A stretch of 13,930 bases of DNA from a virus (taxonomy: Duplodnaviria; Heunggongvirae; Uroviricota; Caudoviricetes), in the IMG/VR virus record IMGVR_UViG_3300015157_000063, positions 1-13,930 of that record. One strand, 5' to 3'. Below are positions 23 through 7,411 of the stretch, piece after piece (within the stretch, counting starts at the first letter, position 1; every line of letters starts with the position of its first letter). The position numbers and the translations under genes are program-made. Under the pieces are notes generated by a model that worked only from the letters and a program-made list of their open reading frames with translations, made no database searches and was not told the DNA's origin.

Positions 23-148
23 TTAAAAACGATATCCTGCTGAGAACATAAACACCCACGGATCGAGGCGTACGCTATCGTGTTGCTGTGCACCGCCCAG
101 CTTATAATTGGCGGTGGTATCGATATCCATGTACCACACTGGTAGGTT
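23..148 (-). pseudogene. C-terminal remnant of a Lom/Ail/PagC-family outer-membrane protein (41 codons, in-frame TGA immediately upstream)
   Basis: Minus-strand frame reads NLPVWYMDIDTTANYKLGGAQQHDSVRLDPWVFMFSAGYRF then stop; ends in the GYRF aromatic C-terminal beta-strand typical of Lom/Ail barrels. Not in the ORF track because it is under 60 aa. Confidence 0.3.
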
Positions 149-451
149 TCAAAAAACACAATAACCAATTGTATTTGAAGCAAAAAACAAGACTTTGAGA
201 TGTTTTTTTTGTACCTTTTTTTATGTTTTTAACTGTCTGATTTTATTGAAATCTTTTTTAGTTTTGCAGAAGGAATTTTTTACTTGATTGTAACTTTTTC
301 GTTTTTTTGGGGCTAATTGACGCGCAATGCTGGGCGGGGAGCGCACAGCCAAAAAAACCGAAATTGACCGCTAATTACTGCCAATCATCATCGCTCTGAT
401 TGAGCGTAAATCATTCAGGTTATTCAGTTCTTCCTTCTGCTCTCGCTGACG

Positions 452-686: not shown

Positions 687-823
687 AACCGCAGCACGTT
701 CCTGCATACGACGTGTCTGCGGCATAATCCCAATGATTACTCCCTGACAGGATTTGCAGGCCACTCAATATCAGGTACAGTTGATGTATCAACACGATTC
801 AACAATACCCGATATTTATTCCA
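687..823. repeat. direct repeat copy A (~137 bp; tfa 3' end plus hairpin)
   Basis: Near-identical by eye to 1737..1872 (aaccgcagcacgtt...cataatcccaatgattactccctgacagg...ccactcaatatcagg.cagttgatgtatcaacacg.ttca...); one indel inside the hairpin loop. Confidence 0.8.
689..722 (-). terminator. hairpin just downstream of the tfa-fragment stop (copy A of the repeat)
   Basis: Inverted repeat CCGCAGCACG ... CGTGTCTGCGG directly 3' of the stop at 737-739, followed on the minus strand by a T-containing tract. Confidence 0.4.
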
Positions 824-1006
824 TGCCTCCAGCAACGATCTTTCTTCCTCCGTTGCGATTTCCAGATCTACAGCATCCTGCAGTGGCGCAATATACTCAC
901 TGAATTCCTGGATGTGGAACTGTGTGGTGACGGTCTTCCAGTCATTCGGCTCCTGCTGTATCGAAGCATACCAGGCTATTTCAATATCGCTATGCTGCGG
1001 CAGCAT
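737..1006 (-). pseudogene. tfa: tail fibre assembly protein (Tfa) C-terminal fragment, 5'-truncated
   Basis: Translation ...[54 protein letters not shown] aligns with the C-terminus of the Tfa at 3691..4218 (...[45 protein letters not shown]). Only about half a Tfa is present; the upstream part is replaced by the methyltransferase gene. Confidence 0.6.
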
Positions 1007-1062: not shown

Positions 1063-1731
1063 ATGGTGAAATCAATGAAAAAAAACACAGATGATGGGGC
1101 TAAAATTTACACACCACTTACCCTAAAGCTTTATGACTGGTGGGTTTTGGGAGTATCAAATCGGCTTGCATGGGGATGTCCTACAAAGGAACACCTTCTT
1201 CCACACTTTCTGGAACATGTAGGTAACAACCATCTGGATATTGGTGTTGGAACTGGGTTTTACCTTACTCACGTACCTGAGAGTAGTCTGATATCTTTAA
1301 TGGATTTGAACGAAGCTAGCCTGAACGCGGCATCTACAAGGGCTGGGGAATCAAAAATTAAACATAAAATTAGCCATGATGTTTTTGAACCTTATCCCGC
1401 GGCGTTACATGGTCAATTTGATTCCATTTCCATGTTTTACCTTCTTCACTGCCTGCCTGGAAATATATCTACAAAAAGCTGTGTAATACGCAATGCGGCG
1501 CAGGCCTTAACTGACGATGGAACTCTATACGGAGCCACAATTCTTGGCGATGGAGTTGTGCACAATAGCTTCGGTCAAAAACTGATGCGCATTTACAATC
1601 AGAAAGGCATCTTTTCAAACACAAAAGATTCCGAAGAAGGCTTAACACATATACTCTCAGAGCATTTCGAGAATGTTAAAACCAAGGTTCAAGGTACTGT
1701 AGTAATGTTTTCCGCTTCAGGGAAAAAATAG
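1063..1731 (+). CDS. class I SAM-dependent methyltransferase (Rossmann fold), substrate unknown
   Basis: Motif I HLDIGVGTGFYL, acidic residue at the end of beta-2 (LMDLNE), motif FDSISMFYLLHCLPG. No DPPY or PCQ DNA-methyltransferase motifs. Likely true start is the ATG at 1075 (MKKNTDD), preceded by GGTGA. Coding sequence is visibly AT-rich compared with the structural genes. Confidence 0.7.
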   Translation: MVKSMKKNTDDGAKIYTPLTLKLYDWWVLGVSNRLAWGCPTKEHLLPHFLEHVGNNHLDIGVGTGFYLTHVPESSLISLMDLNEASLNAASTRAGESKIKHKISHDVFEPYPAALHGQFDSISMFYLLHCLPGNISTKSCVIRNAAQALTDDGTLYGATILGDGVVHNSFGQKLMRIYNQKGIFSNTKDSEEGLTHILSEHFENVKTKVQGTVVMFSASGKK

Positions 1732-1736
1732 CATCC

Positions 1737-1872
1737 AACCGCAGCACGTTCTTGCTTAAGACGTGCTGCGGCATAATCCCAATGATTACTCCCTGACAGG
1801 GTTCGTAGGCCACTCAATATCAGGTGCAGTTGATGTATCAACACGGTTCAGTAACACCCGATACTTTTTCTA
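1737..1872. repeat. direct repeat copy B (tfa 3' remnant plus hairpin)
   Basis: Matches 687..823. Contains hairpin CCGCAGCACG...CGTGCTGCGG at 1739-1771 and, on the minus strand, 26 codons [27 protein letters not shown]-stop equal to a Tfa C-terminus. Confidence 0.8.
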
Positions 1873-2136
1873 GGCTTCCACCACCAGCACGACAAGATGC
1901 CGCATACAGTGAACCAGTCAGTCCAGTTTTCAGACAACCAGTGCGTCACCTTTTTGAAGGCGCTTTAAAGCACGTTTTAATCCAGGTCGGCCTGTCCTTG
2001 TTCCGCTTAATTTATCTTCAAATATTTGTTCATATCCTGCACAAACAAGAGCGTTTCGTTGCAGATCTGTATTCTGGTCATTTGTTGATACCCTTACATA
2101 GCCAATCAGCACGCTGAATCTCCCGTCCAAAAGCAC
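1786..2136 (-). pseudogene. pin: Din-family serine DNA invertase (Pin/Gin/Hin-like), inactivated: two nonsense codons, 3' deletion, fused to a tfa 3' remnant
   Basis: ORF 1930..2136 (GTG start) encodes ...LIGYVRVSTNDQNTDLQRNALVCAGYEQIFEDKLSGTRTGRPGLKRALKRLQKGDALVV then stops where family members read VVWKLDRLGRS. In-frame continuation reads stop-KLD-stop-LVHCMRHL..., i.e. TGG->TGA and CGA->TGA. After about codon 85 the frame runs into Tfa C-terminal codons. Confidence 0.8.
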
Positions 2137-2166: not shown

Positions 2167-2192
2167 TTATCTAAAACCTCGGTTTACGAGAA
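2167..2192. other. gix/hix-like 26-bp invertase crossover site (right of pin)
   Basis: TTATCTAAAACC-TC-GGTTTACGAGAA; close match to the Gin/Hin crossover site as recalled from memory, and inverted relative to the site at 5248..5273. Confidence 0.7.
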
Positions 2193-3125
2193 CTCGGCAC
2201 AAGCGGGGAGAAAATACCGTTACTCAGTACAGCGAATACCTGGACTAATCGACAAACATTCAGCGGTGGCCTTTCTGGTGAACTATCCGGCAATGCTTCT
2301 ACAGCTGCAAAATTAAAAACTGCCAGGAAAATAAGCAATGTGGTTTTTGATGGTTCCTCCGATATCACATTAAAAGCAAGTCATGTTGGTGCGTTTGCCT
2401 TAGGGAAAACAGGAAGCACCGTTGCGAATGATAAAGCAGTTGGATGGAACTGGAGTAGCGGAGCCTATAACGCAACTATTAGTGGTGCATCAACGTTAAT
2501 TATTCATTTTTATATGGGAGAAGGAAGTTGTCCTGCAGCTCAGTTTCGGATTAATTATAAAAATGGCGGTATTTTTTATCGTTCAGCCCGTGATGGTTAT
2601 GGTTTTGAAGCCGACTGGTCCGAATTTTACACCACCACCAGAAAACCTTCAGCAGGAGATGTTGGTGCACTGCCGTTATCTGGTGGTCAACTGAATGGTG
2701 CACTGGGTATCGGAACATCCAGTGCTCTTGGCGGTAATTCGATTGTATTGGGTGATAATGACACGGGCTTTAAACAAAATGGCGATGGTAATCTGGATGT
2801 TTATGCTAATAACGTCCATGTTATGCGCTTTGTCTCCGGAAGCATTCAAAGTAATAAAACCATAAATATTACAGGGCGTGTTAACCCCTCGGATTACGGT
2901 AACTTTGATTCCCGTTATGTGAAAGATGTTCGACTTGGTTCACAGCAATATTATGGAGTGAACAACTGGCAAACATGGAATTTCCGGTGCCCTTCAGGTC
3001 ATGTATTGTCTGGTATTAATGTTCAGGATACAGGGTCTAACTCTGCCGATAATATAGCGGGCGTTTATTACAGACCCGTTCAAAAGTATATAAATGGCAC
3101 CTGGTATAATGTAGCGAGCGTTTAA
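2175..3125 (+). CDS. alternative tail-fibre C-terminal cassette (stf' variable part), start-less, expressed only after inversion
   Basis: Open in frame from the crossover site (ORF track 2340..3125 is the downstream part). Translation [62 protein letters not shown]... ends with ...[17 protein letters not shown], sharing the [20 protein letters not shown] and QKYI.G.WYNV motifs with the stf at 4234..5892. Confidence 0.7.
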
Positions 3126-3126
3126 T

Positions 3127-3660
3127 ATGATGCACTTAAAGAACATAAAAGCGGGTAATGCTAAAACACTGGAACAGTATGAGTTAACAAAGAAACACGG
3201 AGTTATCTGGCTTTACTCTGAGGACGGAAAAAACTGGTATGAGGAAGTGAAAAACTTTCAGCCAGACACCATAAAGATTGTTTACGATGAAAATAATATT
3301 ATTGTTGCCATAACCAAAGATGCCTCCACACTTAACCCTGAAGGTTATAGCGTCGTTGAGATTCCTGATATTACCGCCAACCGGCGTGCTGACGACTCAG
3401 GTAAATGGATGTTTAAAGATGGCGCAGTCATTAAACGTGTATATACCGAAGAAGAGTTGCGCCTACAGACGGAAAACCAGAAAAAAATATTATTACAGCA
3501 GGCCAGAGAAAAAACGCAGTTCTGGCAAACACAGCTTACTTTGGGGATTATCACTGATTCAGACAGACAGCAACTGATGAACTGGATGCGATACGTGCAA
3601 CAGGTTGAGACAACTGATACCTCGGTTCTTCCTGTAACATTCCCGGAACCACCAGAATAA
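3127..3660 (+). CDS. tfa: tail fibre assembly protein, alternative copy (tfa')
   Basis: 177 aa; [44 protein letters not shown]... is a paralogue of the minus-strand Tfa ([44 protein letters not shown]...). Start overlaps the stf' stop. Confidence 0.85.
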
Positions 3661-3663
3661 GAA

Positions 3664-3681
3664 AAGGCCCGTACGGGCCTT
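3664..3681. terminator. perfect palindrome between the convergent tfa' and tfa genes (bidirectional terminator candidate)
   Basis: AAGGCCCGTACGGGCCTT lies in the 30-bp gap between the two stop codons. Confidence 0.5.
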
Positions 3682-3690
3682 AATTTGTTG

Positions 3691-4218
3691 TTATTCTGGT
3701 TTCTGTGGCCATTCAGGCTTTGCAGTATCCACACGGCTGACCATAACGCTGTAGCGTTCCCATGATTCCAGTCGTGTGCGTTCCTCATCAGTTGCCATAT
3801 TCAGTCTGACAGCACGTTCCAGCGGTTGAATCACAGACTCCGCTTCGGAAAGCAAAGCGGCTTTTTGTAACTCTGCCTGCTGTTGCAGTTCCTGTTTTGT
3901 ATATTCCCGCTTTACTACTTTACCATCCAGAAACTTCCAGTTTCCCGAGATATCGGCGCGACGGTTGGCTGTTATATTCGGTAACTCAACAACACTTAAC
4001 CCGTCAGGGTTAAGTGTTGATACGTCTTTCTCAATACAACGAATAATCCCCTTCTGGTCATAAGCTATTTTTAAAGTATCATCCTGAAAGTTTTTTAATT
4101 CGTCATACCAGTTTTTACCGTCTTCTGTATATAGCCAGATAACGCCAGCTTTTTTCGTAAGCTGATACTGCTCAATGGTTTTGGGGTTTCCGGCGGTAAT
4201 ATTTTTCAGATGTTGCAT
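3691..4218 (-). CDS. tfa: tail fibre assembly protein Tfa
   Basis: 175 aa, lambda Tfa / Mu U-like; AGGAGA Shine-Dalgarno upstream; immediately downstream of stf. Confidence 0.9.
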
Positions 4219-4233
4219 ATATTCTCCTGATGG

Positions 4234-5892
4234 CTATGCCTGTTCAACGTTATACCAGTTACCAGAAATGTATTTTTGTAGTGGTCGTGACACCATCCAG
4301 TCATCTCCATCAACCTCACCAATAATTTGCAATCCTGTTGTCACATGACCATTACCTGGTTCGCAAAGTCCTCCGCGATATAATGTGTCAGAACGTCTGC
4401 CTCCCAGACGCACATTTCTGATAAAAGAACTATTCAGGTAATCATTTAAGTTTGAACCCCAGCACCCACCAAATATATTTCCATCGGTGTTATAACGGAC
4501 GCCACCCGCAATAAGAGCACCCGGTGAAATAAAGGATTTATCGTTCGGGTTAAAATACCATAAAGCATCATTACCTCCATCGCCACGCATATGAATACAT
4601 GGAACCGGAAATCCATACTGTTCTGTCAGTAAATACCCAAAGCTGACCGCGCCGGGATAGCCCTGTCCATTGCGAATGGACAAGCCCTTAACTATCGGCA
4701 CGTAATGACCACCAGGAGTGGGATTCCAGGCAAACTGCGTCTGAACAAAAGGCGCGGTGGCATTATTCAACTGGTCTGCAAATGCGCCACTTCCATCAGG
4801 AATTATTCCCTGATGAATATATGCAACCCGCTTATAAAAATCAGCAGATGCGGGTTGAAGCCCAAATGCCAGTTGTCCATTTGAATAGAATAAAAGGACA
4901 CCGTCGCCGCCCTGTTTAATACCAGTGTCGTTATCTCCGAGAGTAATGGAATTACCGCCCAGTGCGTTATCTGTACCAAGCGCCAGCCCACCATCAATTT
5001 TGGCCCCGTGGCTGACAGATATAGCACCTGTTCTCAGATTTATAGCGAATGGCCTTAATGGGCCGATATCACCGTTTTCGCCTTGTCCTTCAGCCGTCGG
5101 AATGAAATGAAGAAAATCTTCTGAACGACGGAAAATAAGACCGAAGGCATCATTGAAAATTCGCAGCGCATTCACCGTGCCAATTTTCAGTTCTCCGGTC
5201 ATTTTATCGCCGGAACGCTGAACGGCGTTACCAGCCTTGTTTACCGTTTCCTGTAAACCGAGGTATTCGATAACGGCGGCAACGGTCGATTTCGCAAGAA
5301 TATCCCGCCCAACTTTTGTCAGGGTTGCCAGACTGGCAACATCATTCCCCGTAAAATACGGAAACCTGTCTGCCGCAGTAGCAAGCCCGGCCAGCGCCGT
5401 CAGGGTGGCATCTTTCGGTTGCTTACCCGCAAGCGCGTTAGTCATGGTGGTCGCAAAATTCGGGTCGTTGCCCAACGCCGCAGCCAGCTCGTTCAGCGTA
5501 TTCAGTGCGTCAGGCGACGAGTCCACGAGGGCAGCGATCGCAGCCATAACATAAGCCGTGCTTGCGATTTGGGTATTATTCGTTCCCTGTCGCGCAGTTG
5601 GTGTTGTTGGCGTTCCGGTCAGTGCAGGACTATTTAAGGGCGCTTTCTTGTTCGTTTCACCCATTACCGCCTTAACCGCTTTTGGCGTTGCCGCCAGTGA
5701 CTCGGAAGTGCTGTTGGTCGCACTGCTGAGCTGTACTATCCCCTTTTTCGTCGTGCTCGCATCCTCCAGCGCCACGGCGGATGCAATATCCTCTGACCGC
5801 CATATTGTCCAGGTACAGGTTCTGGCCGTTGCGCCACCAGTCATCCTCGCGATGAAAATCCGGCATATCAATTCCCGCCAGATGGTATGCAT
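4234..5892 (-). CDS. stf: side tail fibre protein (lambda Stf-like), 5'-truncated; Stf-homologous part is about 4234..5800
   Basis: ...EDIASAVALEDASTTKKGIVQLSSATNSTSESLAATPKAVKAVMGETNKKAPLNSPALTGTPTTPTA...NTLNELAAALGNDPNFATTMTNALAGKQPK... matches the middle region of lambda Stf as recalled. The first ~30 codons of the ORF are K-gene sequence read out of frame. Confidence 0.85.
   Translation of the reverse strand: MHTIWRELICRIFIARMTGGATARTCTWTIWRSEDIASAVALEDASTTKKGIVQLSSATNSTSESLAATPKAVKAVMGETNKKAPLNSPALTGTPTTPTARQGTNNTQIASTAYVMAAIAALVDSSPDALNTLNELAAALGNDPNFATTMTNALAGKQPKDATLTALAGLATAADRFPYFTGNDVASLATLTKVGRDILAKSTVAAVIEYLGLQETVNKAGNAVQRSGDKMTGELKIGTVNALRIFNDAFGLIFRRSEDFLHFIPTAEGQGENGDIGPLRPFAINLRTGAISVSHGAKIDGGLALGTDNALGGNSITLGDNDTGIKQGGDGVLLFYSNGQLAFGLQPASADFYKRVAYIHQGIIPDGSGAFADQLNNATAPFVQTQFAWNPTPGGHYVPIVKGLSIRNGQGYPGAVSFGYLLTEQYGFPVPCIHMRGDGGNDALWYFNPNDKSFISPGALIAGGVRYNTDGNIFGGCWGSNLNDYLNSSFIRNVRLGGRRSDTLYRGGLCEPGNGHVTTGLQIIGEVDGDDWMVSRPLQKYISGNWYNVEQA
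5248..5273. other. gix/hix-like 26-bp crossover site inside stf at the constant/variable boundary
   Basis: TTCCTGTAAACC-GA-GGTATTCGATAA; its reverse complement matches 2167..2192 at 22 of 26 positions; lies at stf codons ~207-215 (VIEYLGLQE). Confidence 0.7.
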
Positions 5893-6980: not shown

Positions 6981-7321
6981 CAGTTCACCACCTGCTCAAT
7001 CGTACAACTGAAATCACTGTACCTGGCGTTATCTGTGACGCTCCACTCCCGGCATACCACCCTCACCGTCCGGTTATGTTTCGGCGGTCGCCACAAAAAG
7101 GCACGGTAACCACCATGCCACGATAAAAACTCTTCCAGCCATCGCCGGGTCGCCTCATCCGTCACCCGGAACACCGCCTGAAACGTCTTCAGTCGGGCAT
7201 TAAGTCCCGTCGGGCGGCGCTGTTCATAACCGTCACCAAACCGTACCCTCGCCACCGACGGTTTCTCACTCACCTGCATCCCTTCACGCGGGACCAGATG
7301 CAGCGTTTTTATCTCAGCCAC
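6980..7321 (-). CDS. M: minor tail protein M
   Basis: 113 aa, GTG start; ...VRFGDGYEQRRPTGLNARLKT......FLWRPP...EQVVN resembles lambda M; overlaps the L start. Confidence 0.85.
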   Translation of the reverse strand: MAEIKTLHLVPREGMQVSEKPSVARVRFGDGYEQRRPTGLNARLKTFQAVFRVTDEATRRWLEEFLSWHGGYRAFLWRPPKHNRTVRVVCREWSVTDNARYSDFSCTIEQVVN

Positions 7322-7411
7322 TCAGCATTCCTCCGTCACGTCGCATGGACAGCATCACCGCCTGCACCCGCTGGTCAATCAGTTGCACAAGGCTGCCCGC
7401 AGCTTCCGGCC

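What the first reader, a model, noticed from the sequence alone, without database searches (positions are those of the whole stretch)
1786..2136. Pin-type invertase decays into a Tfa tail: two nonsense codons then a junction
The N-terminal 68 codons are near-identical to Pin/Gin/Hin (catalytic Ser in YVRVSTNDQ), then TGA replaces the conserved Trp (VVW-KLDRLGRS) and a second TGA replaces the Arg four codons later. Recognisable recombinase codons continue for ~15 more residues before the frame runs directly into 26 codons of a Tfa C-terminus (repeat copy B). This records both point inactivation and an illegitimate or homologous fusion.
Basis: partly seen in the sequence, partly recalled or inferred. 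Interest (0 to 1): 0.5.

Follow-up and report, generated by a model that had tools for sequence, protein, structure and literature searches.

The report
Dead prophage invertase fused to Tfa
This is the broken remnant of a phage DNA-flipping enzyme gene, cut off at codon 79 and joined to the tail end of a tail-fibre assembly gene; it sits beside a 3.1-kb tail-fibre segment that related strains carry in both orientations, a situation already published for the E. coli ST131 prophage Phi4.

Summary
On the minus strand, 2112→1876 encodes the first 79 codons of a Gin/Pin-type serine invertase. TGA replaces Trp61 (1930-1932) and TGA replaces Arg65 (1918-1920). The remnant is fused in frame, within a TGGAA microhomology (1876-1880), to the last 29 codons of a lambdoid tfa gene (1875→1786). 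The homologous start is GTG 2112, not 2136, so 60 codons precede the first stop, not 68. The half encoding the rest of the catalytic domain and the DNA-binding domain is absent from the 26 kb examined.

The remnant keeps its cis elements. The crossover site is 2167-2192 (partner 5248-5273), and the region homologous to the annotated P1 cin enhancer is 2023-2094. An otherwise identical prophage (AST46) has exactly 2188-5252 inverted. Among genomes with this dead gene, 239 have one orientation and 144 the other, so an invertase must act in trans.

This locus is prophage Phi4 of ST131 strain EC958. Forde et al. 2014 already reported the same sites, the "severely truncated" invertase and inversion in trans. 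It is real, ordinary and already known.

The parts
1876..2112 (-). Remnant of a Gin/Pin-type serine DNA invertase gene, codons 1-79. The start is GTG 2110-2112 and the catalytic Ser9 codon is 2086-2088. Codons 1-60 are gin-type and codons 61-79 are pinE-type.
   Evidence: Pfam Resolvase E 6e-19, profile 2-92 of 145. 173/180 nt identical to D108 gin and 171/180 to the EC958 Phi1 invertase for codons 1-60. 49/57 to O157 pinE for codons 61-79. PGAP annotates a recombinase pseudogene at 1933-2112.
1930..1932 (-). First nonsense codon: TGA in place of Trp61 (TGG).
   Evidence: All intact homologues and the H9Ecoli sister allele have TGG here.
1918..1920 (-). Second nonsense codon: TGA in place of Arg65, the Arg of the conserved DRLGRS motif. 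It is one C-to-T step from CGA.
   Evidence: Intact genes have CGN, and O157 pinE has CGA. The stop is shared with the H9Ecoli allele, whose annotated 64-aa product ends here.
1876..1880 (-). Fusion junction. The pentanucleotide TGGAA is compatible with both parents: pin codons 78-79 and tfa L164-E165.
   Evidence: pin-type identity runs to 1882 and tfa identity starts at about 1880. No further homology exists between the parents.
1786..1875 (-). 3' remnant of a lambdoid tail-fibre assembly gene, codons A166-E194 plus the TAA stop, in frame with pin. It contains TAG at 1870-1872 in place of Trp167.
   Evidence: Pfam Caudo_TAP profile 105-130 of 131, E 2e-10. Near-identical to the 3' end of the full-length 194-aa tfa of another lambdoid prophage at potB in TOE17, with identity continuing downstream into the methyltransferase module.
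2023..2094 (-). Region homologous to the recombinational enhancer that lies inside Din-family invertase genes (nt 19-90 of the coding sequence).
   Evidence: The P1 record annotates the cin enhancer at nt 19-90 of cin. The window stretch is 70/72 identical to D108 gin and to the Phi1 invertase gene, and 55/72 to P1. Function here is inferred by homology only.
2167..2192 (-). Invertase-proximal 26-bp crossover site, TTCTCGTAAACC GA GGTTTTAGATAA. It is part of the 32-nt inverted repeat 2161-2192.
   Evidence: Inverted repeat I1. Identical to Phi4_3prime in Table 3 of Forde et al. 2014. Half-site exchange is seen in AST46.
5248..5273 (+). Distal 26-bp crossover site, TTCCTGTAAACC GA GGTATTCGATAA. 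It lies inside the tail-fibre gene, and the inverted-repeat arm is 5248-5279.
   Evidence: Identical to Phi4_5prime of Forde et al. 2014.
2180..5260 (.). Invertible tail-fibre segment of about 3.1 kb. It holds the silent Sv' (2232-3125, +), Tfa U' (3127-3660, +), Tfa U (3691-4218, -) and the expressed Sv (4234 to about 5260, -).
   Evidence: AST46 has exactly 2188-5252 as the reverse complement, and the exact-reverse-complement relation still holds when the interval is widened into the shared site core to 2179-5261. The rest of the 13.9 kb is identical apart from 2 SNPs. Pfam Caudo_TAP, gp37_C and Phage_fiber_2.
1737..1883 (.). Copy B of a direct repeat (tfa 3' end plus about 50 bp downstream). 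Copy A is at 687-834. The two copies bracket a class I SAM-dependent methyltransferase gene (1063-1731, +).
   Evidence: Repeats D1/D2, 88-90% identity. The same tfa-hyp-MTase-'tfa module follows a full-length tfa in the TOE17 potB prophage.

Best explanation
Window 1786-2112 (minus strand) is a non-functional chimeric pseudogene.

Origin. A tail-fibre cassette of the P2/Mu type (constant fibre part, invertible segment, gin-type invertase) was grafted into the stf-tfa locus of a lambdoid prophage integrated in ompW. The left joint lies where both parents are homologous, in the fibre gene. The right joint is an illegitimate, in-frame join at a TGGAA microhomology. It links invertase codon 79 to tfa codon 166. 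This removes the rest of the catalytic domain and the whole DNA-binding domain.

Decay. Point decay accompanied or followed the truncation; its order relative to the junction is unresolved for the changes shared with the sister allele. R65*, R68H and S69C are shared with that allele. W61*, C27Y, G67V and W167* in the tfa tail arose later in this lineage.

What remains functional. The remnant makes no active invertase, but it keeps the cis elements needed for inversion. These are the proximal crossover site and, by homology, the intragenic Fis-dependent enhancer. The neighbouring 3.1-kb segment can therefore still be inverted by a related Din-family invertase supplied in trans. In ST131 the proposed donor is the P2-like prophage Phi1.

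Shown: the anatomy, the junction, the relative order of the lineage-specific mutations, exact site-specific inversion between otherwise identical prophages, and both orientations being common.

Inferred: enhancer function, the identity of the trans enzyme, and whether the source strain of this window still flips the segment.
For: - Translation and domain hits.
- Codon-level alignments to seven homologues.
- Junction and the identity of the downstream module.
- No invertase C-terminus and no tfa N-terminus in 26 kb.
- Mosaic of EC958 Phi4: 97% to a lambdoid stf N-terminus, then 92-96% to the P2-like Phi1 fibre, segment and invertase 5' end, then 99.5% to the lambdoid tfa-MTase module.
- The sister allele at another locus shares the junction and R65* but keeps TGG at codon 61 and at tfa codon 167.
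- The exact sequence is present in EC958, an O121 strain and DLI.5a. 426 of 5426 complete genomes carry the junction region.
- AST46 equals the window except for an exact inversion of 2188-5252, with the inner half-sites swapped.
- 239 genomes have the window orientation and 144 the flipped one. The queries required tfa', pin' and the segment end together.
- Forde et al. 2014 (PMC4134206) report identical 26-bp sites, a 3106-bp segment, alternative-orientation PacBio contigs from the single EC958 assembly, and a 'severely truncated' Phi4 invertase. They propose inversion in trans, possibly by the Phi1 invertase.
- The enhancer position is taken from the P1 annotation and the region is 70/72 identical to gin.
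Against: - No trans-acting enzyme was identified for the window's own source. The nearest record, TOE17, has no e14 at icd. It also has no second gin-type 5' region at megablast sensitivity: all 5 places are accounted for. A more sensitive count was ambiguous (8 places).
- Enhancer function rests on homology only. One of the two differences from gin (GAC to GAT at codon 16) lies inside that region.
- In this window the fibre gene itself is truncated at its 5' end and the prophage is heavily deleted. Flipping here would probably have no phenotype.
- Codons 61-79 differ from the best intact allele at 8 of 57 positions. Part of the apparent decay may instead come from an unsampled parental allele.
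Confidence: 0.9

Rival explanations
1. The junction arose by a local inversion between a convergent tfa and pin, as in the Rac or Qin arrangement, rather than by deletion or replacement.
For: In Rac and Qin, tfa and pin are adjacent and convergent. An inversion with ends in both genes would give a pin5'-tfa3' fusion in the same orientation.
Against: Such an inversion predicts a reciprocal tfa5'-pin3' joint nearby. tblastn finds no invertase C-terminus and no tfa N-terminus (residues 1-131) anywhere in 26 kb. The invertase 5' end is gin/P2-type with its own segment, not pinR/Q-type.
Confidence: 0.04
2. The two orientations seen among genomes come from RecA-dependent homologous recombination between the inverted repeats, or from separate acquisitions, and not from a trans-acting invertase.
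For: No trans enzyme was demonstrated here. TOE17 lacks a close paralogue.
Against: The repeats are only 32 nt and 84% matched. The exchange falls exactly in the 9-bp core of canonical 26-bp Din sites. AST46 and the window differ by 2 SNPs in 13.9 kb outside the flip. PacBio assembly of the single EC958 culture yielded a separate contig with the Phi4 segment in the alternative orientation (Forde 2014).
Confidence: 0.04
3. The truncated product is a functional small protein. It would be 60 aa here, or 64 aa in the sister allele where it is annotated as a protein. A possible role is a dominant-negative modulator of related invertases.
For: The 5' part is well conserved: 173/180 nt to gin, against 49/57 for the following codons. 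The fragment is present in about 8-10% of complete E. coli genomes. The start codon and upstream region are the same as in intact genes.
Against: The remnant carries three substitutions at positions invariant in the intact homologues compared (C27Y, D41G, T57A) plus successive, lineage-specific stops, which is the pattern of neutral decay. The fragment ends at about profile position 92 of the 145-position Resolvase domain and has no later domain; from established knowledge of serine recombinases, the missing part includes the long dimerisation helix. Conservation of the DNA is explained equally well by the cis-acting enhancer and site, and by the youth of the clone.
Confidence: 0.03
4. The stop codons are sequencing or assembly errors in one record.
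For: None.
Against: The identical 407-nt sequence 1786-2192 is present in independent assemblies (EC958, an O121 strain, DLI.5a). The remnant is at least 99% identical in about 370-420 records.
Confidence: 0.005

Closest known systems
Prophage Phi4 of E. coli O25b:H4-ST131 strain EC958 (Forde et al. 2014, PLoS One 9:e104400, PMC4134206)
   Same: It is the same element. The 407 nt at 1786-2192 are identical in EC958. Both 26-bp crossover sites are the same, the invertible segment is the same size (about 3.1 kb), and the chromosomal site is the same (ompW, next to trp). The paper already states that the Phi4 invertase is severely truncated and that inversion must occur in trans.
   Different: The window's prophage is more deleted: J, lom, most of stf and the tape-measure gene are missing. 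It also lacks the ash/Rha genes next to ompW'. The text retrieved from the paper mentions truncation only; the nonsense codons, the tfa fusion partner, the microhomology and the gin/pinE mosaic appear to be added here.
Gin of phages Mu and D108, and the invertases of P2-like prophages (EC958 Phi1; P88-like phages)
   Same: Codons 1-60 are 94-96% identical at nucleotide level, with the same GTG start. The proximal outer half-site GGTTTTAGATAA is the same as in D108. The layout is the same: invertase next to an Sv-U/U'-Sv' segment and transcribed away from it.
   Different: Those genes are intact at 196-199 codons. This one stops being invertase at codon 79 and has two in-frame stops before that.
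PinE of e14 (E. coli K-12 and O157) and Cin of P1
   Same: Codons 70-77 (MRHLVVLV) are identical to pinE, and the O157 allele also matches at most positions of codons 61-69. From established knowledge (Plasterk and van de Putte; Iida; Sandmeier 1994), these Din-family enzymes substitute for one another on each other's sites.
   Different: The first 60 codons are only about 70% identical to pinE or cin at nucleotide level. The remnant therefore descends from a gin/pinE hybrid, not from pinE itself.
PinR and PinQ of the Rac and Qin cryptic prophages
   Same: They are serine recombinase genes next to tfa genes in defective lambdoid prophages.
   Different: They are too divergent to align outside the catalytic motifs and were not detected by blastn. 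They are intact, convergent with tfa, and have no invertible segment.

Membership tests
Din family of serine DNA invertases (Gin/Pin/Cin/Hin) | N-terminal resolvase-type catalytic domain with the active-site Ser in the YxRVST motif | tested here: met
   Pfam PF00239, E 6e-19. GYVRVST is present with Ser9 (codon at 2086-2088). Only profile positions 2-92 of 145 are covered.
Din family of serine DNA invertases (Gin/Pin/Cin/Hin) | Uninterrupted reading frame of about 185-200 codons that includes the C-terminal helix-turn-helix DNA-binding domain | tested here: not met
   In-frame TGA at codons 61 and 65. Invertase sequence ends at codon 79. No C-terminal part is found in 26 kb (tblastn). It is a pseudogene descended from a family member, not a functional member.
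Din family of serine DNA invertases (Gin/Pin/Cin/Hin) | Adjacent DNA segment bounded by inverted 26-bp crossover sites that share the same central dinucleotide | tested here: met
   Sites at 2167-2192 and 5248-5273, both with central GA. They match the published Phi4 sites and the consensus.
Din family of serine DNA invertases (Gin/Pin/Cin/Hin) | Segment actually inverts by exchange at the site cores | tested here: met
   AST46 shows an exact inversion with swapped inner half-sites. 239 genomes have one orientation and 144 the other. An alternative-orientation contig was assembled from the single EC958 culture (Forde 2014). This shows the site system works, not that this gene does.
Din family of serine DNA invertases (Gin/Pin/Cin/Hin) | Fis-dependent recombinational enhancer inside the 5' part of the invertase gene | tested here: inconclusive
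   The homologous stretch 2023-2094 is retained. It is 70/72 identical to gin and 55/72 to the enhancer annotated in P1 cin. Fis binding and enhancer activity cannot be tested with these tools.
Tail-fibre assembly proteins (Caudo_TAP, lambda Tfa type) | Full Caudo_TAP domain (131 profile positions) in a protein of about 175-200 aa | tested here: not met
   Only profile positions 105-130 are present, from 29 codons that contain an internal TAG. The full-length parent type is the 194-aa Tfa of the TOE17 potB prophage.

The most novel reading that the evidence does not exclude
The 5' stump of the invertase gene is retained because it is a working cis module: crossover site plus intragenic enhancer. 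This would let a defective lambdoid prophage use the invertase of an unrelated P2-like prophage, coupling tail-fibre switching of two prophages in one cell. A more speculative variant is that the 60-64-aa N-terminal peptide modulates that foreign invertase.
Probability: 0.2. Interest if true: 0.3.

Novelty: already known. Interest (0 to 1): 0.12.

Why it matters
Its value is mainly for annotation. It explains a cluster of small "recombinase family" and "tail fiber assembly" pseudogene calls that recurs in about 8-10% of complete E. coli genomes, including the pandemic ST131 clone.

It also warns that the neighbouring 3.1-kb segment can appear in either orientation in assemblies even though no local invertase exists.

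As biology, it is a clear example of modular exchange between P2/Mu-type and lambdoid tail-fibre regions, and of cross-talk between prophages through a shared recombinase. Both ideas are established (Sandmeier 1994; Forde et al. 2014).

Tried and rejected
1. Finding the trans-acting invertase in the closest record, TOE17.
- The icd site has no e14.
- The potB prophage has no invertase.
- The megablast place count leaves no room for a second gin-type gene.
- A chimeric anchor-plus-pin' query in sensitive mode returned 8 places in TOE17, whose nature could not be resolved. This is inconclusive.

2. Searching for an intact allele closer than gin or pinE over codons 52-79.
- None is better than about 87% (O157 pinE).
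- The 90-95% identity band consists, in the rows inspected, of partial gin-type matches.

3. Local inversion as the origin of the junction. Rejected because no reciprocal joint exists.

4. Homologous recombination at the pin/tfa joint. Rejected because the parents share only TGGAA.

5. Promoter scan of 1650-2300. It found nothing. The single terminator-like hit is just the palindromic core of the crossover site.

6. My first assumption that the window is exactly TOE17 was wrong. It differs at 96, 916 and 942, and from DLI.5a and AST46 at 916 and 942.

Full report
**Where the window comes from.** The window is an E. coli chromosomal segment: the tail and head end of a heavily deleted lambdoid prophage integrated in ompW, next to yciEFG and trp. 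The closest complete record, strain TOE17, matches over all 13,930 bases with three mismatches at 96, 916 and 942. DLI.5a and AST46 differ at 916 and 942 only. For the finding's region, NCBI's annotation of TOE17 lists:
- a "recombinase family protein" pseudogene at window 1933-2112 (-), missing its C-terminus;
- a "tail fiber assembly protein" pseudogene at 1786-1869 (-), missing its N-terminus;
- a methyltransferase gene at 1063-1731 (+);
- another tfa fragment at 737-913 (-).

**Check of the observation.** The minus-strand translation reads [105 protein letters not shown]. Pfam assigns residues 3-83 to the Resolvase N-terminal domain (E 6e-19, profile 2-92 of 145). It assigns residues 80-105 to the last 26 positions of Caudo_TAP (E 2e-10).

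I made a codon-by-codon alignment with D108 gin, the EC958 Phi1 invertase, a second P2-like prophage invertase, K-12 and O157 pinE, and P1 cin. It shows:
- Codon 61 is TGA where every intact gene has TGG.
- Codon 65 is TGA where they have CGN (CGA in O157 pinE, one transition away).
- Invertase codons continue to codon 79.

- The real start is GTG 2112, shared with the intact genes. That makes 60 codons before the first stop, not 68.
- The tfa part is 29 codons, not 26.
- A third stop, TAG at 1870-1872, replaces Trp167 of Tfa.
- There are missense changes at positions invariant in the intact homologues compared: C27Y, D41G, T57A, G67V, R68H and S69C.

**The junction.** A second lambdoid prophage in TOE17, at potB/potC, carries the uninterrupted module stf, full-length tfa (194 aa), a small ORF, the same methyltransferase, and a 'tfa fragment. 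From about window 1880 downstream through the methyltransferase, the window is practically identical to that module. Upstream of 1882 it is invertase. The parents share only TGGAA: pin ...GTG GAA and tfa ...CTG GAA GCC TGG. The join is therefore illegitimate, with at most 5 nt of microhomology, and happens to be in frame. tblastn with the invertase C-terminal 120 residues and with Tfa residues 1-131 finds nothing in 26 kb around the site. There is no reciprocal joint, so a local inversion is not the origin.

**The larger mosaic.** I compared the less deleted EC958 copy with other elements. Its tail-fibre region consists of:
- a lambdoid stf N-terminus (97% to the potB prophage);
- then P2-type fibre, invertible segment and invertase 5' end (92-96% to the P2-like prophage Phi1), with the switch falling where both parents are homologous;
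- then a short pinE-type stretch covering about codons 65-77, which matches neither of those two parents;
- then the lambdoid tfa-methyltransferase module (99.5%).

The invertase itself was a hybrid. Codons 1-60 are gin-type (173/180 to D108 gin). Codons 61-79 are pinE-type (49/57 to O157 pinE, 34/57 to gin).

**Order of events.** A sister allele about 96% identical sits in a different prophage remnant beside ybhB in strain H9Ecoli. It has the same junction, the same R65*, R68H and S69C. It keeps TGG at codon 61 and at tfa codon 167, Cys27 and Gly67. The junction and R65* are therefore old. W61*, C27Y, G67V and the tfa TAG are later decay in the window's lineage.

**Distribution.**
- 426 of 5426 complete genomes carry at least 80% of 1740-2240.
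- With an 85-nt probe of codons 52-79, 371 records are at least 99% identical and 166 are 95-99% identical, the sister type.
- Many carriers are ST131 (EC958, JJ1886 and others). The same sequence also occurs in an O121 strain and in DLI.5a.

**What surrounds it.** A 32-nt inverted repeat (2161-2192 and 5248-5279) contains two canonical 26-bp Din-family crossover sites with central GA. Between them lie a silent fibre C-terminus, two opposed tfa genes and the expressed fibre C-terminus. This is the classic Sv-U/U'-Sv' invertible segment.

Strain AST46 is identical to the window except for two SNPs and an exact reverse complement of 2188-5252. The inner half-sites are swapped and the exchange lies inside the shared core.

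I used two 641-nt probes that each require the tfa stump, the pin stump and one or the other segment end. With them, 239 genomes have the window orientation and 144 the flipped one. Two isolates of one study series, 4/1-1 and 4/0, differ in orientation. Because all of these carry the same dead gene, the flips postdate its inactivation and need an invertase supplied in trans.

**Retained cis elements.** The stump retains the proximal site and the stretch 2023-2094. This corresponds to the enhancer annotated at nt 19-90 of P1 cin, and it is 70/72 identical to gin and to the Phi1 invertase gene. Enhancer function here is an inference from homology.

**Comparison with the literature.** Forde et al. 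2014 (PMC4134206) described this element as prophage Phi4 of EC958. They list crossover sites identical to the window's and a 3106-bp invertible segment. Their PacBio assembly produced separate contigs carrying alternative orientations of the Phi1, Phi2 and Phi4 tail-fibre segments. [quoted passage not shown] The exchangeability of Gin, Cin, Pin and Hin is established knowledge. The text retrieved from the paper mentions truncation only. What this analysis appears to add is detail: the three nonsense codons and their order, the fusion partner and microhomology, the gin/pinE hybrid ancestry, and the population split of orientations.

**What remains open.** I could not name a trans-acting invertase for the window's own background. 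TOE17 has no e14. It has no second gin-type 5' region at megablast level. A more sensitive count was ambiguous. In this window the fibre gene is also truncated and the prophage lacks most tail genes, so any flipping here is probably without consequence.

**Verdict.** It is an ordinary prophage pseudogene and already described in its essentials. Interest is low.

Noticed in passing
window 687-834 and 1737-1883, with 1063-1731 between them: Direct repeats (88-90% identity) made of a tfa 3' end plus downstream sequence bracket a class I SAM-dependent methyltransferase gene. The same tfa-hyp-MTase-'tfa module, with a full-length tfa, sits at the end of another lambdoid prophage at potB/potC in TOE17 (L010 11132-12762). 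It looks like a mobile cargo module bounded by tfa ends.
   Followed up: partly
window 916 and 942 (also 96): The window has G at 916 and T at 942, where TOE17, AST46 and DLI.5a all have A and C. It also differs from TOE17 at 96. The window's source is therefore a close relative of these records but is none of the three compared base by base.
   Followed up: partly
window 5786-5799 and 7314-7427: These are deletion scars. A tail-fibre gene lacking its N-terminus abuts a C40 peptidase (gpK-like) fragment. A 114-nt tape-measure remnant abuts a truncated major capsid gene. Compared with EC958 Phi4 and the O121 prophage, J, lom and most of stf are gone.
   Followed up: partly
window 23-400: An ompW 3' fragment (23-148) marks the prophage integration site. 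The ash/Rha genes that lie between ompW' and the DUF4376 pseudogene in EC958 and O121 are absent here.
   Followed up: no
window about 1920-1945 (invertase codons 57-64): The invertase remnant switches from gin-type to pinE-type sequence inside the conserved LVVWKLD stretch. The ancestral gene was therefore already a recombinant between two Din-family lineages.
   Followed up: yes
L003 (E. coli H9Ecoli, NZ_CP029180.1 1394973-1400362): A sister allele of the same pin'-'tfa fusion lies in a different prophage remnant beside ybhB. Its segment is cut by IS1, and a 64-aa 'recombinase family protein' is annotated as a real gene. The 85-nt probe finds 166 records in the 95-99% identity band, which matches this type.
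   Followed up: partly
window 1676-1813 (-): A 45-aa ORF annotated as a hypothetical protein (WP_001309429.1) overlaps both the tfa stump's stop codon and the 3' end of the methyltransferase gene. It has no Pfam match and recurs wherever the module occurs.
   Followed up: no
window 2177-2191: The only terminator-like hit in the region is the palindromic core of the crossover site followed by its T-run. It is a pattern-scan coincidence, not an independent feature.
   Followed up: yes
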